Source: a virus (taxonomy: Duplodnaviria > Caudoviricetes). From it: a DNA stretch of 30,155 nucleotides. The position numbers and the translations under genes are program-made. Below, one piece after another: positions 4,854 to 24,459 of the stretch. The notes below the pieces were generated by a model. That model ran no database searches, was not told the DNA's origin, and worked only from the letters and a program-made list of their open reading frames with translations. The stretch covers positions 1-30,155 of IMG/VR virus record IMGVR_UViG_3300012665_000215; one strand, written 5' to 3'. Every line of letters starts with the position of its first letter. Position 1 is the stretch's first letter.

Positions 4854-5807
4854 TTAGTTAGCCGAGTTAGTGATACCGTAAGTAACGATGTCTTGAACAA
4901 CTCCGTACTGAACACCAGCAGATAGACGCATAATTACGCGAACGTTCTGGCTGCCGTCGATGTCTGCTAAATCAATAACCTTAACCTCTGTGTGGTCTGA
5001 CAATAAAGAAGTACCGAAATACAAGTTATCTTTAGTAGTAGCGATTGCTTTGTTAGCACCCATTCCGTTTGCTACAAAGATTTTAACACCATCAAAAGAT
5101 AAAGACCCATTGTTATACCATTGAGTTCCTAAAGAGTTAGTACCGTTAGCACCTAAACCTGAAGCACCAAATCCACCAAGAGCACGAACGTAAGCGCGAG
5201 CCATGTTCTGAGAAACGTAAAGATATAAATCTTCGTTTCCATAAAGAGCAGCTGGGATAGCATCTACGATTTTACCCATTTCAGCAACTACGTTAGCAGC
5301 AGTTACAGTTGTTCCAGCAACTTCTTGAGCCGAAGGTAAAGAAGCATCGGCAGCTAATAAAGTAGCGAAACCATCAAACTCGCCAGCGTTAGCGTTAACA
5401 CCTGACCAGATGTTTGTCTCGTTCTTTGCAGCAACTTTAGCAGCTACGTGAGCAACTAAGAAATCTTGGAAAGAAGTAGGTAATACATCAAAAGAAGAAA
5501 AACCTTGTTGTGCAGAAAGGTAATCCGAGTGAAAATCTTTCTTGCAAAGTTGTAAATTAACTTGGAATTCTTCTGGAGTGATGATACGCTCAGTTAAAGT
5601 AACCGTAGAAGTAGCATCAAAATCACAAGTAGCGTTCTTTAAAATATCGTCTGTTGATAAACGCTTAATAACTTCTTTGTACTTAATGTTTGGTTTAATA
5701 GTGATACCACCAGCTTCGATAGTTGGAGCTGATAATAATGCAGCGGCGATAATTTGGTCTTTAAATTCCCCGCTGTAAGTTGTAGTGATACTTGTAGTAG
5801 TAGCCAT
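4854..5807 (-). CDS. Major capsid protein
   Basis: 317 aa; follows protease and scaffold; strongly biased high-expression codons; followed by a terminator. Confidence 0.85.
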   Translation of the reverse strand: MATTTSITTTYSGEFKDQIIAAALLSAPTIEAGGITIKPNIKYKEVIKRLSTDDILKNATCDFDATSTVTLTERIITPEEFQVNLQLCKKDFHSDYLSAQQGFSSFDVLPTSFQDFLVAHVAAKVAAKNETNIWSGVNANAGEFDGFATLLAADASLPSAQEVAGTTVTAANVVAEMGKIVDAIPAALYGNEDLYLYVSQNMARAYVRALGGFGASGLGANGTNSLGTQWYNNGSLSFDGVKIFVANGMGANKAIATTKDNLYFGTSLLSDHTEVKVIDLADIDGSQNVRVIMRLSAGVQYGVVQDIVTYGITNSAN

Positions 5808-15608: not shown

Positions 15609-16032
15609 TGTTCTCTTCTTCAAATACGTTGTAAACTTGTCTAATTTGACCAATGTAATCTCGCCAACAAGATGCACAAGATGACTGCTCTAGACGGATG
15701 TTAAAGATTCTATAATAGATATCTGTTAAATCCCATTGCACTTTCGGTACTATTTCGTTTTGTGGCTTAGAGAAAAACTCTTTTAAGTATTCGTAGTCCT
15801 CTTGTACTAAGCAATTAGGCTTACGATACGACCATAATTTATTTAGCTTCTCTTTGCGTTCATCACAACCGCAATCCCAGTCTAGGGCTTTAGAAAGTAA
15901 CTCTACTCCTTTCTTAATTCCTGTAACTGTTGTAAATGCTTCGATAGTATCGCCCAACCCTTGAGCGTTCTCGAATGTAGCAACCTCTTTAGGCTCTACA
16001 ATAATTTTTCTTTTAATTGGTCTTTTTGCCAT
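15601..16032 (-). CDS. Hypothetical protein with Cys motifs
   Basis: GLGDTIE...DCGCDERKEKLN...CASC; possible Zn binding. Confidence 0.75.
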   Translation of the reverse strand: MAKRPIKRKIIVEPKEVATFENAQGLGDTIEAFTTVTGIKKGVELLSKALDWDCGCDERKEKLNKLWSYRKPNCLVQEDYEYLKEFFSKPQNEIVPKVQWDLTDIYYRIFNIRLEQSSCASCWRDYIGQIRQVYNVFEEENNG

Positions 16033-16457
16033 TCCTTTAATCGTTGTTTACATTTCTTAATTGTATTATAAACGCTCATAAATCCTATGTTCGTTTCTCT
16101 AGATAGCTTACGAATTGAGATGCGATTGTTAACCCATAGCATAAATAGCTTTTTGTCATACCAGTCCCATGTATCAATAAACTCTATGTAAGGTTGAGCT
16201 AACTCTTCAGCTAACTCATTACTCTCATCTTCTCTTAGTGAATACTCTACCTCTTTTGTTATTTCTGTTTTGATAACCTTCTTAGAATGTAAGTCCATCG
16301 TAAGGCTTCTAAGCGTATAATAAAAATAAGCTTCGTTAATATCTTTGCCATAAACTTTTATATAAGCCTCTTGTACCACATCTTCTGCATAATTAACCTC
16401 CCCAAATTTCTTTACAATTGAAACCCAATGCTTATGCCTTGAATAGATATGCTCCAT
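15996..16457 (-). CDS. ECF-like RNA polymerase sigma factor (late gene activator)
   Basis: Region-2 motif AEDVVQEAYIK and region-4 HTH SIRKLSRETNIGFMSVYNTIKKCKQRLK; sits just before the packaging genes. Confidence 0.8.
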   Translation of the reverse strand: MEHIYSRHKHWVSIVKKFGEVNYAEDVVQEAYIKVYGKDINEAYFYYTLRSLTMDLHSKKVIKTEITKEVEYSLREDESNELAEELAQPYIEFIDTWDWYDKKLFMLWVNNRISIRKLSRETNIGFMSVYNTIKKCKQRLKEWQKDQLKEKLL

Positions 16458-17990: not shown

Positions 17991-18334
17991 AGCGCAGTTA
18001 TGTCAAATTCGATTCTAGGGTTTTCTTTGTCAATAAATTTAAACATATGTAGCTCGTGACATAGTCTATCGTTTTCTATTACTCCGCTGGTTTGTAGGCA
18101 ATCTAATATAATCTTTGCAGCATTATCTAAATCGCTCCTGTTAGACTGAAAATAAACGTTAATCTTAATGATAAATGCTTGTTTTAAAGGCTCGCTCGGT
18201 TTGCCTTTAGCCAAAGCCAATAACCAAGTAAATCGCTTTTCGTATTCTGTTAACTCTTTAGATTTGTAAAGCCTGTTGTTTCCAATCTTGTATCCGTTTG
18301 ATTTGCTAGGTACTTGACCTAATATAGTTATCAT
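17987..18334 (-). CDS. rusA: RusA-like Holliday junction resolvase
   Basis: VPSKSN...SDLDNAAKIILDCLQ...IENDR...NPRIE. Confidence 0.85.
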   Translation of the reverse strand: MITILGQVPSKSNGYKIGNNRLYKSKELTEYEKRFTWLLALAKGKPSEPLKQAFIIKINVYFQSNRSDLDNAAKIILDCLQTSGVIENDRLCHELHMFKFIDKENPRIEFDITAL

Positions 18335-19158
18335 TTTTTATTTTTTGGGTCTAAGATACATGGAGCAGTATTATTCCATTTAATAGAATGATGTAGTCTT
18401 GTATGGTTAGTGTTCATCATTGAAACCTTAACTCCACTTGGGTGCATAAGCACCGAGTGAAATGATTTTACATAAGTTCCGCTTAAAGCGTATTCGTCCG
18501 TCATACCTCCTTTATTGCTTTGCGTATCCTTTTGGTCTAATTGGATATTTGTAAACGTAAAGAATATGTCTCCTCTATTTCCTAGAGTCGTATAAGTATT
18601 AACGTCTTCATTAATCGAGCCTACAAATTGAAATTCTCTATCGGTAGAGCAAATAAAAGAATTCATACACTTACGCTTTAACTTAATTCCGCTAAATCCT
18701 CCGATATGGTCTCCTCCTTGTGAGAATGCAATCGACTTAATATTTACGCTCTTGTAAAAATCTAGCATTTTTTCAAATACTACATCTAGATTAGTGATTA
18801 TTTTAGCTCCGGTTTCGTAACGGTATCCAAAATAATAATAATCGTCATCTAATTGCATAAAGTATTTAACTGCTATTTCTTTCGCTATTTTAAAGCAAGC
18901 GTTACGAGCGTGAATGATAACTTTACGATTATCAAAGTTATTGCCTTCGTCTACCGAATCCGCCATAGCTTTTTTATCAAAGACTTTTACGTTTTCTTCT
19001 CCGTAATTTGCTACGTATTTATTTATCGTTTTGTCTTCGTTATCGACAATGAAATAAATTTTACCCGTATAACCGCATTTTTTTAGAGTCGAATAAGTCT
19101 TAACGTTATCCGGTCTTCCGTGAGTTAGTATAAATACCGCAAAATTATTATTCTCCAT
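18331..19158 (-). CDS. GT-A fold glycosyltransferase (TET-associated/GREB1-like type)
   Basis: VFILTHGRP, ARN, FMQLDDD (DxD), KCMNSF, INEDV and QSNKGG motifs. Confidence 0.78.
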   Translation of the reverse strand: MENNNFAVFILTHGRPDNVKTYSTLKKCGYTGKIYFIVDNEDKTINKYVANYGEENVKVFDKKAMADSVDEGNNFDNRKVIIHARNACFKIAKEIAVKYFMQLDDDYYYFGYRYETGAKIITNLDVVFEKMLDFYKSVNIKSIAFSQGGDHIGGFSGIKLKRKCMNSFICSTDREFQFVGSINEDVNTYTTLGNRGDIFFTFTNIQLDQKDTQSNKGGMTDEYALSGTYVKSFHSVLMHPSGVKVSMMNTNHTRLHHSIKWNNTAPCILDPKNKK

Positions 19159-19546
19159 ATTCTTCTAGGTATTGCTTTTTAATCTCATCGCATAATTTTA
19201 CGTATCCATATTGAATTGCTTTCTCAAAATCAATAATAACTAAACCGCTTTTCTCCATTAGGTTTTGCATCTCTTTTGATGAGTGAGCGTAATAATCGGC
19301 TATCTTTTCGTAGTTAAAAACATTGTGTCTACGAGCCGAATCCATTAAAAACATTTTCTCATCGTATGGTAGTGATGATGCTTCTATTTCTTTTAATAGC
19401 CTATGAGTTTTTGTCTTATCGCATAGCTCCATAATATGAGGCTTTATATTTTTGGGCTCATAAATTGGAGACTCTATTTTACTTGAATATTTATTTTCGC
19501 TTTTGTTGGGTGCATATTCTTGCCCAAATAGATTTGTTTGTTTCAT
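19148..19546 (-). CDS. Glycosyltransferase-associated protein
   Basis: KYSSKIESPIYEP...ARRHNVFNYEKIADYYAH...LVIIDFEKAI. Start at 19546 by TAATG coupling; overlaps the GT start. Confidence 0.65.
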   Translation of the reverse strand: MKQTNLFGQEYAPNKSENKYSSKIESPIYEPKNIKPHIMELCDKTKTHRLLKEIEASSLPYDEKMFLMDSARRHNVFNYEKIADYYAHSSKEMQNLMEKSGLVIIDFEKAIQYGYVKLCDEIKKQYLEEYGE

Positions 19547-20307
19547 TATTCGCAAGGTTTAATTTGTCCGTTTTCATCTAGGTAAGCTTTAAAATCTGCT
19601 AAGTTTTCTATAAACTCTCTGTAACATTGAGCTTTGCAAGCCATTACAAGCTCGTCTTTGTCTTGGTATTTAGCTAAATTACTTGCGTAAATCCTTTGTT
19701 TATCTTCTAAACTAGCTTCGTATATTCCAAATTTTACAATATAATCGTATAAAACGTGGAGGCCACCAGCTATCCAGTTCATTTTAATGTTGCGTTCGTG
19801 GCATCTAATCATTTCTTGAGAATACATATTAGCCGAATTTATCGCTGCCATTTTTAAATCTGCATCGCTTGGTATTTCTTTAGGGGCTTCTATTTCTTTT
19901 ACTACAGTTAAAGTAGATTGTCTTGAGTAATCAATATAAGCCTTTGCAATACGACCAAAGTATTCACAAGAAAAGTTTTCGTAGCATTTAGCATCAATTC
20001 CTAGCTTGCCAGAAACTGCCCACTCAAAGGCTAATTTTATTTCTTCTGGGGTTAAGTTTCCAAAGTTTGTTTTAATAAAATTAATAAGTACAAACTTCTC
20101 TTCTTCAGTAGGCATATTATTGCCTCTAAGCCCTACTAAAACCATTGAATAGCGCAATACTTGTTTAAGGTCTTCTTCGTGCCTTACACGCAAAGTTTGG
20201 GTACTCTGTGCTTGTAATATGATATCAGCTTCAGCGTTACCAGTTTTTAATGGCTTCCATTCTTGCTGCGCTAGTTCCGAGTTTCTGTTCGTTGTTTGTA
20301 GCTCCAT
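19546..20307 (-). CDS. Replication-associated hypothetical protein (position of a helicase loader)
   Basis: Overlaps the initiator 3' end; LTPEEIKLAFE helical motif. Function inferred from position only. Confidence 0.5.
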   Translation of the reverse strand: MELQTTNRNSELAQQEWKPLKTGNAEADIILQAQSTQTLRVRHEEDLKQVLRYSMVLVGLRGNNMPTEEEKFVLINFIKTNFGNLTPEEIKLAFEWAVSGKLGIDAKCYENFSCEYFGRIAKAYIDYSRQSTLTVVKEIEAPKEIPSDADLKMAAINSANMYSQEMIRCHERNIKMNWIAGGLHVLYDYIVKFGIYEASLEDKQRIYASNLAKYQDKDELVMACKAQCYREFIENLADFKAYLDENGQIKPCE

Positions 20308-20923
20308 TGTTTTTAAATTTAGAATTGTTGTTCATCCAAGTTTTTACTCTTCTGCTAATATCAAAAAATTTCTCGCATTCCCATCGCTCTTTACCTTTGT
20401 TATTTTTTTCTGTCCAATAGGAATAAAAATTACCATATTCGTTTTCAAGTTCTAAAATATATGGCGAAAGCATTTCGCTAAAAGATACTTTACTTTCTTT
20501 TTCTTTTATTTCATTTACTTTACTTTCCTTTACTTTACTTTGTTGAACGGTCGTTGAACGGTCGTTGGACAACCGCTTATCGGCTGATGCTTTACCCGCT
20601 AATTTGCGTTGTTCCTTCATTTTAAAGTAAGGCTCTAAGTAAACTAGCATCTTAGGAGAAAAGAATTTTTGTTCTTCATCTAAATCAAACAACTGGTAAT
20701 TACATATTGTTGTTCTAATCTTTGGCTCTGAAACACCAAATTCTTCTGCTAGTAAGTCAATATCTTCAAGAGGATACATTAGGTCTTGTTGCTCCCTTAA
20801 AGTCTCTAATAACATAAAATAAATACCGTAACCCTCTACTCCTAATTCTTTGCGCAACCTTCTAATTTTGCGGTCATGCCTTGCATTACAAAAATGCGGG
20901 AAATAAAATGCTTCTTTTTCCAT
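20237..20923 (-). CDS. Replication initiator-like protein (DUF4373/Lin1244-type N-terminus)
   Basis: MEKEAFYFPH...ARHDRKIRRLRKELGVEGYGIYFMLLE; repetitive linker; C-terminal FYSYWTEKN..GKERWE. Start moved to ATG 20923. Confidence 0.78.
   Translation of the reverse strand: MEKEAFYFPHFCNARHDRKIRRLRKELGVEGYGIYFMLLETLREQQDLMYPLEDIDLLAEEFGVSEPKIRTTICNYQLFDLDEEQKFFSPKMLVYLEPYFKMKEQRKLAGKASADKRLSNDRSTTVQQSKVKESKVNEIKEKESKVSFSEMLSPYILELENEYGNFYSYWTEKNNKGKERWECEKFFDISRRVKTWMNNNSKFKNNGATNNEQKLGTSAARMEAIKNW
20487..20574. repeat. Iteron-like repeats / putative replication origin
   Basis: gttgaacggtc x2 (20542-20563) plus degenerate gttggacaacc, next to strand-biased tactt/tacttt repeats. Confidence 0.6.
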
Positions 20924-20932
20924 TTTGAAAAT

Positions 20933-21022
20933 AAAAAAAAGCCAGTCTGCGTAGGAGTGCAAAGCTGGCTTCGGTTTTTTAACCTTTAAATAACCCAAGA
21001 ACTCCTACCCTCTTGGCTTATT
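20933..21022 (-). promoter_or_regulatory. Structured 5' leader: two hairpins with complementary loops, the second a terminator
   Basis: Loop GUAGGAGU (21001-21008) is the exact complement of loop ACUCCUAC (20951-20958). Hairpin 2 is followed by U8. Confidence 0.75.
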
Positions 21023-21027
21023 GTTTT

Positions 21028-21059
21028 GCAATTTAAAGCTAAGATTTAGATAGTGCAAA
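21028..21059 (-). promoter_or_regulatory. Bacteroidota-type promoter for the replication operon
   Basis: TTTG-N20-TAAATTGC immediately before the leader hairpins. Confidence 0.6.
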
Positions 21060-21173
21060 CTTTACACTTTCTTTTTTCTTTGAATACTTAGCCGAATAGT
21101 AAAGCTTTTTGTAGTCCTTACTTAGCTCTTTAGCTATGTGTTCTTGCCATTGATTAAACTTCTGTTTCTCCAT
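21039..21173 (-). CDS. Small basic protein (44 aa, MEKQKFNQWQEHIAKELSKDYKKLYYSAK...)
   Basis: Not in the ORF track. ATG is 1 nt after the upstream stop. Confidence 0.55.
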   Translation of the reverse strand: MEKQKFNQWQEHIAKELSKDYKKLYYSAKYSKKKESVKFALSKS

Positions 21174-23899: not shown

Positions 23900-24073
23900 T
23901 TAAAATTTTGAAGTAATTAAGAATCCAGTTCTACCATCCGTTTCAACATTAAAGATATTCTTGTTTGAATACATAGTAGCTACATAATTTTTAGCTTCCT
24001 TAAAGGAATTAAAGAACGTATAAGTAAATTCTTCTGTGTAACTTTTAGCGTAGCCGATTGCGAAATTTGTCAT
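23900..24073 (-). CDS. Small early protein (57 aa, MTNFAIGYAKSYTEEFTYTFFNSFKEAKNYV...)
   Basis: Not in the ORF track. Directly behind promoter/leader copy 1. Confidence 0.7.
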   Translation of the reverse strand: MTNFAIGYAKSYTEEFTYTFFNSFKEAKNYVATMYSNKNIFNVETDGRTGFLITSKF

Positions 24074-24165
24074 TTTTTTGTTGGTTTAGAATAGCTCCGT
24101 TGCTATTATGAAACAAATATAGAGGATTGATTTGAAATAAAAAAATCTTTTTTAATCTTTTTTAT
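24071..24165 (-). promoter_or_regulatory. Early promoter/leader cassette, copy 1
   Basis: TATATTTG (-7 box, 24114-24121), then hairpin AATAGC-AACGGA-GCTATT, CTAAACCAAC, an A run and ATG. 24080-24109 is identical to 24373-24402. Confidence 0.8.
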
Positions 24166-24364: not shown

Positions 24365-24459
24365 TTTTTTGGGTTGGTTTAGAATAGCTCCGTTGCTATT
24401 ATAATTCAAAGATACAAAAAACATTTGGAATAAAAAAACTTTTTTAATCTTTTTTTTAT
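24362..24459 (-). promoter_or_regulatory. Early promoter/leader cassette, copy 2
   Basis: TATCTTTG (24407-24414), with the same hairpin and leader and the same upstream A/T tracts as copy 1. Confidence 0.8.

What the first reader, a model, noticed from the sequence alone, without database searches (positions are those of the whole stretch)
20923..21059. Kissing-loop plus terminator RNA switch in the leader of the replication initiator
Seen: a promoter (TTTG-N20-TAAATTGC) is followed by hairpin 1, AAUAAGCCAAGA-GGGUAGGAGU-UCUUGGGUUAUU. Then comes hairpin 2, AAGCCAGCUUUGC-ACUCCUAC-GCAGACUGGCUU, running into a U8 tract that ends 9 nt before the initiator AUG. The two loops are perfectly complementary over 8 nt (GUAGGAGU/ACUCCUAC). 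Established: plasmid rep genes are controlled by attenuation (pT181, pIP501) or by long-range loop pseudoknots (ColIb-P9/IncB). Inference: loop-loop pairing competes with or stabilises the terminator, gating replication. This may be an undescribed cis-regulatory RNA class, possibly indicating copy-number control of a non-integrating phage.
Basis: partly seen in the sequence, partly recalled or inferred. Interest (0 to 1): 0.78.

Follow-up and report, generated by a model that had tools for sequence, protein, structure and literature searches.

The report
Barcoded kissing-loop leader of phage replication
In front of this uncultured phage's replication-initiator gene lies a 90-base leader whose two hairpin loops are exact complements, and related phages keep that match while changing the letters, so it is a conserved RNA element, absent from Rfam, that likely meters how much transcription passes a predicted terminator into the replication genes.

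Summary
Confirmed on the minus strand, and far from chance. All 80 loci fetched by the initiator protein carry such a leader, in two mirror architectures. In scans that left the central loop letters free, 115 of 119 and 79 of 121 hits pair perfectly, with 7 and 20 different codes. The conserved kiss is 7 bp, not 8. Loop geometry and box spacing are nearly fixed. The element heads several initiator families, HNH, Bro-N and helicase genes, also in SD-using phages.

Best reading (inferred): the kiss holds the terminator base open, as in the guanidine-IV riboswitch, but with no obvious ligand. The likeliest input is the leader RNA itself acting in trans; this is untested. Plasmid-style copy control is not supported: no conserved antisense promoter, ParA or integrase was found.

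No Rfam hit. It may be among anonymous candidates of Fremin 2023, whose alignments I could not read. This scan has reported what is probably the same family on other DNA (e1-6096066).

The parts
21039..21173 (-). 44-aa ORF ending 16 nt before hairpin 1; context only, since most relatives have an unrelated 88-91 aa gene here
21056..21059 (-). -33 box (TTTG) of a predicted Bacteroidota promoter
   Evidence: sequence; similar boxes in many but not all homologues, seen by eye
21028..21035 (-). -7 box TAAATTGC (TAnnTTGY type); puts the predicted +1 at about 21023, at the foot of hairpin 1
   Evidence: same offset as TATATTTG in relatives; strict box in 138 of 190 elements; SM5 box at -12 to -5 in PMC9723704
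20989..21022 (-). Hairpin 1: 12 pairs around a G.G mismatch; loop = 1 nt plus the 7-nt purine-rich box
   Evidence: 10 of 12 pairs show two-sided changes; -12.1 kcal/mol
21002..21008 (-). G-box GUAGGAG, first half of the kissing helix; central 3 nt are the variable code
20973..20984 (-). 4-bp linker hairpin inside a 17-nt linker
   Evidence: a linker hairpin is predicted in 119 of 131 type A elements
20939..20971 (-). Hairpin 2, predicted intrinsic terminator: G+C-rich lower stem, bulge, 5-bp upper stem; loop = 1 nt plus the 7-nt box
   Evidence: -15.2 kcal/mol, upper stem alone -2.9; upper pairs covary
20951..20957 (-). C-box CUCCUAC, second half of the kissing helix
20933..20940 (-). U8 tract, predicted termination zone; a terminated RNA would be about 91 nt
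   Evidence: at least 6 U in 8 nt in 130 of 131 type A and 56 of 64 type B elements
20237..20923 (-). Replication initiator, 228 aa; first gene of a same-strand run that continues into RusA, terminase and structural genes
   Evidence: PF14297 E 6e-15; phrog_2562 E 2e-20
20486..20563 (.). Candidate origin inside the initiator gene: two 11-nt tandem repeats plus A-rich repeats
   Evidence: likeness to lambda-O-type origins is recalled, not tested

Best explanation
The leader is a conserved two-hairpin RNA whose loops are complementary over 7 bases, and it likely works as a kissing-loop attenuator: the loop of hairpin 1 would catch the loop of the emerging terminator hairpin and hold its lower stem open, letting polymerase read on into the replication operon. 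When the kiss fails to form in time, the terminator would close and release a roughly 91-nt RNA. The likeliest input is that RNA itself: finished leaders would display both loops free and could occupy the loops of new transcripts with the same code. That would give dose-dependent shut-down of initiator (or nuclease, or Bro-N) synthesis as infection proceeds. Shown: both hairpins, the covarying kiss, fixed geometry, position. Inferred: start site, termination (about 0.8), kiss opposing termination (about 0.6), self-RNA input (about 0.3).
For: Covariation with the code left free: 31 of 120 against about 2 expected; 115 of 119 type A and 79 of 121 type B, none at 7 of 8. Loop layout is nearly fixed: 1 nt plus box in 110 and 120 of 131 type A loops; box plus 6 nt in 62 of 64 and 2 nt plus box in 64 of 64 type B loops. 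Box spacing has median 52 and 53 nt in the two mirror architectures, which points to a tethered cis contact. Kiss (-9.3 as a duplex) and lower terminator stem (about -10 to -12) are of similar strength. A straight stack of both full hairpins plus kiss spans about 87 A, more than the linker can reach in 45 of 64 type B elements; in type A (17-18 nt linker) it needs the linker hairpin to melt (helix dimensions recalled, rough). In SD-using phages the SD lies after the U tract, outside hairpin 2. The transcribed strand folds better in 171 of 196. Precedent: guanidine-IV, where the kiss blocks the terminator and stem growth strains the kiss (PMC11611296). For self-input: downstream genes are unrelated; no third site or antisense promoter; two type B pairs differ at 4 of 93 positions, all inside the boxes.
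Against: No expression or probing data support any step. Covariation cannot tell a switch from a static fold. A fully stretched type A linker does reach in 119 of 131 cases, and bulges could bend the stems, so steric exclusion is not proven. In type A, the window's own type, the code changes no faster than stem pairs (2 of 231 against 33 of 2149, p 0.57), and one clade of 13 rows keeps one code. The type B excess rests on about 3 independent switches (p 0.016). The energy comparison omits tether cost and Mg2+. Free leaders could pair with each other and so titrate themselves. The three Fremin candidates that may be this family are flagged 'no' for a terminator. The U-rich run also suits the Bacteroidota translation start (recalled).
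Confidence: 0.5

Rival explanations
1. Static fold, no switch: both hairpins stay closed and kiss, giving a compact leader that fixes a leaky termination ratio or protects the 5' end; the code drifts by neutral compensatory change.
For: Type A code evolves at the stem rate. The start site sits at the foot of hairpin 1. No external input was found.
Against: Rough geometry makes a kiss between two complete hairpins strained. Type B code switches occur on identical backbones.
Confidence: 0.2
2. Translational control: the kiss opens the lower stem and frees the U-rich entry site for the ribosome, as the repZ pseudoknot does in ColIb-P9.
For: The first ATG lies 12-19 nt after the start of the U tract in 136 of 191 elements. 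Bacteroidota initiate on unstructured A/U-rich leaders (recalled).
Against: In SD-using phages the SD is outside the hairpin. The U tract is kept even where the gene starts farther away.
Confidence: 0.12
3. Ligand- or protein-gated attenuator: a metabolite, ion, host elongation factor or phage protein stabilises the kiss, as guanidine does in guanidine-IV.
For: Invariant end pairs of the kiss; conserved unpaired loop letters in type B; G.G mismatch in 73 of 132 type A.
Against: The central pairs vary freely. Downstream genes are not metabolic. The upstream gene differs between lineages and its common form is absent from the window.
Confidence: 0.12
4. Plasmid-type copy control by a separate antisense RNA from the opposite strand (pT181, pIP501, Inc RNA).
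For: It heads initiator genes; the opposite strand would also fold (-26.0).
Against: Antisense -7 boxes are no commoner than in a control window and have no fixed position. No ParA, serine recombinase or tyrosine integrase.
Confidence: 0.04
5. DNA-level element or replication primer rather than a regulatory RNA.
For: It lies about 370 nt from candidate origin repeats.
Against: Strand asymmetry favours the transcript. It sits right behind a promoter box. It also heads non-replication cassettes.
Confidence: 0.02

Closest known systems
Guanidine-IV riboswitch (PMC11611296; passages and Discussion read)
   Same: Two hairpins, the second a terminator; a loop-loop contact competes with closure of the terminator stem.
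   Different: There the kiss depends on guanidine and controls mepA. Here the central pairs vary through many codes, polarity is reversed in type B, and the genes are phage initiators, nucleases and Bro-N proteins. No Rfam match.
ColIb-P9 repZ pseudoknot with Inc antisense RNA (PMC8383071, passages)
   Same: A hairpin loop pairs in cis with a downstream sequence to switch on a replication initiator; an RNA in trans can block that loop.
   Different: That control is translational and needs a separately promoted antisense RNA. Here the partner is a terminator loop and no antisense promoter is conserved.
pT181 / pIP501 antisense-driven attenuation (PMC8383071, passages)
   Same: Terminator between promoter and rep gene.
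   Different: No counter-transcript signal; read-through would rest on a kiss, not on an alternative long stem.
Phage P4 CI RNA with seqA and seqC (PMC4825925, passage)
   Same: An RNA derived from the leader itself causes premature termination ahead of replication genes; this is the precedent for the self-input idea.
   Different: P4 has three complementary segments and a processed RNA, and serves lysogeny. Here there are two boxes, no third site and no lysogeny genes found.
Anonymous candidates DNAVirus_187, _4859 and _704 of Fremin et al. 2023 (PMC10690425; passages and supplement rows)
   Same: Aquatic, mostly freshwater phage RNAs of 49, 106 and 69 nt within 25 nt of DUF4373, DUF1376 or HTH_36 genes; Bacteroidetes host listed for _187.
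   Different: Listed without interpretation and flagged as non-terminators. Their alignments could not be read, so identity with this family is likely but unverified.

Membership tests
Guanidine-IV riboswitch | Hairpin loop pairs with the loop of a downstream terminator hairpin | tested here: met
   (terminator function itself is predicted)
Guanidine-IV riboswitch | Lies before mepA-type exporter genes | tested here: not met
Guanidine-IV riboswitch | Matches a curated riboswitch model | tested here: not met
   no Rfam 15 hit; I did not check that Rfam holds a model for this class
Guanidine-IV riboswitch | Ligand-dependent read-through | not testable with these tools
   needs in vitro transcription
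Antisense-controlled plasmid rep leaders (pT181, pIP501, ColIb-P9) | Leader precedes a replication initiator | tested here: met
Antisense-controlled plasmid rep leaders (pT181, pIP501, ColIb-P9) | Conserved opposite-strand promoter for a counter-transcript | tested here: not met
   32 of 194 against 39 of 155 control windows; only Bacteroidota-type -7 boxes were scanned
Antisense-controlled plasmid rep leaders (pT181, pIP501, ColIb-P9) | Replicon kept as a plasmid (partition genes) | tested here: not met
   ParA 0 of 5; a weak ParB-like hit sits beside a glycosyltransferase gene
P4 CI / P1 C4 immunity RNAs | Further target sites complementary to the RNA elsewhere in the leader or genome | tested here: not met
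   in 9 genomes, 7 other copies of the box, all inside ORFs; none in 5 genomes
P4 CI / P1 C4 immunity RNAs | Leader-derived RNA acts in trans | not testable with these tools
   needs a trans-titration assay
Intrinsic terminator | G+C-rich stem followed by a U-rich tract | tested here: met
   the simple scan did not list hairpin 2 and listed the upper part of hairpin 1 instead
Intrinsic terminator | RNA 3' ends in the U tract | not testable with these tools
   no read data could be laid
Fremin 2023 DNAVirus_187/_4859/_704 | Sequence matches their covariance models | not testable with these tools
   zip files too large to search

The most novel reading that the evidence does not exclude
A self-sensing, barcoded attenuator: one 90-nt RNA is at once the antiterminator in cis and, once released, its own repressor in trans. 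A lytic phage would use it to count its own genomes or transcripts, shut off initiator synthesis on a timer and block kin carrying the same 7-8-nt code. The code would define interchangeable exclusion groups, invented twice with opposite loop polarity.
Probability: 0.25. Interest if true: 0.9.

Novelty: new variant of a known kind. Interest (0 to 1): 0.68.

Why it matters
It is a common, compact, protein-free regulatory RNA family of aquatic phages (196 distinct sequences from partial scans), with strong covariation and a ready set of natural compensatory variants. How apparently lytic phages with lambda-O-like initiators limit initiator synthesis without a repressor is poorly mapped (my own knowledge), and this makes the question testable with one short template. 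If the RNA acts on itself in trans, it is a new route to dosage sensing and superinfection exclusion, and a set of orthogonal attenuators for Bacteroidota engineering. If it is only a static leaky terminator, it is still a new Rfam-grade family.

Tried and rejected
Chance match: rejected. The loosest scan, hairpin 2 shape only, gave 5 of 122 with an upstream complement and 0 downstream; most hits were noise. 8-bp kiss: rejected. One search used a structure string off by one column and is superseded. Rfam: nothing at gathering score in the window or in 20 other loci apart from one tRNA; best E 0.82 at low threshold. Cultured phage: no DNA match; initiator matches only 27-34% identity. RNA evidence: no RNA holder listed. 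Antisense promoter and third target site: not found. SD/anti-SD or CsrA-type reading of the boxes: fits only some codes (motifs recalled). Code-specific upstream protein: the same upstream family goes with both types and many codes. Chromosomal or prophage copies: 1 real element in 120 genome hits, on a scaffold that reads by eye as a whole phage; none in 400 sampled genomes of that phylum by two patterns. Correlation of kiss and stem energy (rho 0.35 and 0.30) was not used, because relatedness inflates it. Literature searches returned nothing; the listings of 71, 82 and 100 showed no paper describing this element. No count was made of how many elements lead directly into an initiator gene.

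Full report
Context. The window is a complete 30,155-nt tailed-phage record with terminal repeats. Its long genes run on the minus strand. Terminase, portal, tape measure, endolysin, ERF and RusA are recognisable; no integrase or repressor turned up in the PHROG scans of its ORFs, nor ParA or a serine recombinase. A Bacteroidota host is inferred from TAnnTTTG-type promoters and SD-less starts. The ORF at 20923-20237 is a Lin1244_N replication initiator.

Observation. Both hairpins, the loop match, U8 and the 9-nt gap are as described. The promoter box TAAATTGC sits where relatives have TATATTTG. It fits motif SM5, TAnnTTGY at -12 to -5, in Flavobacterium (PMC9723704, passages), so +1 is predicted at about 21023. 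On its own the fold is unremarkable (z -1.99).

Homologues. The initiator fetched the best 80 of 105 related viral loci. All 80 carry an element within 1.5 kb upstream: 52 type A only, 26 type B only, 2 both (this search required complementarity). A code-blind fold found a loop match of at least 6 nt in 69 of 80, less in 4, and no candidate in 7. Type A is the window's layout: purine-rich box in hairpin 1, pyrimidine-rich box in the terminator loop. Type B is the mirror: pyrimidine-rich box in a short first hairpin, purine-rich box at the tip of a long terminator hairpin. In 46 type A sequences the 7-bp kiss is paired in 322 of 322 cells, with three covarying central pairs and four invariant end pairs; nine more divergent sequences of the 55 listed and one near-copy of the window were left out of that alignment. 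The eighth pair holds in 27 of 46. In 14 type B sequences an 8-bp kiss is paired in 112 of 112 cells, six pairs covarying.

Unbiased tests. With the three central letters free, 31 of 120 hits were fully complementary against about 2 expected. A tighter type A pattern gave 115 of 119 with 7 codes; the 4 misses do not look like the element by eye. A type B pattern with six free positions gave 79 of 121 at 8 of 8, none at 7 of 8, and 20 codes. Pooled, there are 196 distinct sequences, 132 A and 64 B; type A is skewed by one fixed-code scan.

Anatomy. Type A loops are 1 nt plus box in 110 and 120 of 131; type B loops are box plus 6 nt (62 of 64) and 2 nt plus box (64 of 64). Box spacing has median 52 (45-61) and 53 (52-57). 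At least 6 of 8 tail bases are U in 130 of 131 and 56 of 64. A strict -7 box lies within 24 nt of hairpin 1 in 138 of 190 (all). The transcribed strand folds better in 171 of 196.

Genes controlled. First genes include Lin1244_N, DUF6291, HTH_36, DUF1376-like and DnaD-like initiators, HNH nucleases, a methylase, helicases, Bro-N and many short unknown ORFs (40 and 31 of 100 representatives were scanned). Type A copies also occur in phages with sigma-70-like promoters and an SD after the U tract. In G011 the element heads a Bro-N gene before the portal; in G012 a short ORF and then ERF and exonuclease. A type A covariance model finds one element per type A genome, scores some of these distant copies at E about 1e-3 or better and others weakly, and does not hit the type B genomes. 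The element is viral: 1 of 120 genome-collection hits was real, on a phage-like scaffold; none in 400 sampled genomes of that phylum; no tyrosine integrase in 14 carrier genomes.

Mechanism. Hairpin 1 would fold first and present its box. The second box leaves polymerase just before the terminator base can close (footprint recalled). Kiss and lower stem have similar energies. A rough ruler says both full hairpins cannot kiss without strain: stack about 87 A; linker too short in 45 of 64 type B and 12 of 131 type A even when stretched, and 119 type A linkers carry their own hairpin. This is the logic reported for guanidine-IV (PMC11611296, passages and Discussion). I therefore read it as a kissing-loop attenuator (0.5). 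For the input, the downstream protein cannot be a common factor, no antisense promoter is conserved, and other copies of the box lie only in ORFs (9 of 11 genomes testable). The economical candidate is the leader RNA itself, with P4 CI as a loose precedent (PMC4825925, passage).

For and against a barcode. On a tree of 62 initiator N-termini the 12 codes need 26 changes (minimum 11, shuffled mean 33.5), so leaders are swapped often but not at random; general mosaicism could do the same. In type B, two pairs of 93-nt elements differ at 4 sites, all in the boxes, and the de-duplicated excess over stem pairs is p 0.016; these pairs were picked after the fact. In type A there is no excess (p 0.57). 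The barcode reading stays a minority hypothesis (0.25-0.3).

Prior knowledge. No Rfam family. Searches returned no paper; the listings of 71, 82 and 100 and passages of PMC5737381 describe nothing like it; the library omits most subscription papers. Fremin 2023 lists aquatic phage candidates before DUF4373-type genes that are probably pieces of this family; its alignment and model files could not be read, which bears on the novelty claim. It is not a guanidine-IV member nor a plasmid antisense system, though it likely works like the first. Earlier notes of this scan report similar leaders on other genomes, one probably this family; they are unchecked and are not counted as support.

Verdict. 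Real, strongly conserved, uncurated cis-regulatory RNA family; function inferred, not shown. New variant of a known kind; interest 0.68.

Noticed in passing
window 24073-24163 and 24366-24456: Two 91-nt blocks, 79% identical, each with a TAnnTTTG box and the same small leader hairpin before a short ORF; likely duplicated early promoters.
   Followed up: partly
window 20486-20563: Two 11-nt tandem repeats plus A-rich repeats inside the initiator gene; candidate replication origin.
   Followed up: partly
L021 398-661 and most of L001-L080: An 88-91 aa protein of unknown function sits just upstream of the element in most relatives. The Atlas clusters shown are mostly viral with no Pfam family; it is absent from the window.
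   Followed up: partly
L039 725-834 and 1393-1500 (also L042): An HNH cassette with its own type B element lies upstream of a type A element; the two use different codes.
   Followed up: partly
window 18331-19546: TET-associated glycosyltransferase gene next to a weakly ParB-like gene; possibly a DNA base-modification pair.
   Followed up: no
window 15996-16457: 153-aa ORF before the packaging genes that reads by eye like a sigma-type late activator; no PHROG hit at 1e-5 and no Pfam hit.
   Followed up: no
L818 19398-19499 and L821 about 5250-5350: Type A elements in phages with sigma-70-like promoters, heading a Bro-N cassette beside a tRNA gene and an ERF/exonuclease cassette.
   Followed up: partly
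L839-L840 (G015 scaffold, 37.7 kb): The only genome-collection carrier reads as a whole phage binned into a MAG titled Ekhidna; judged by eye from ORF starts.
   Followed up: partly
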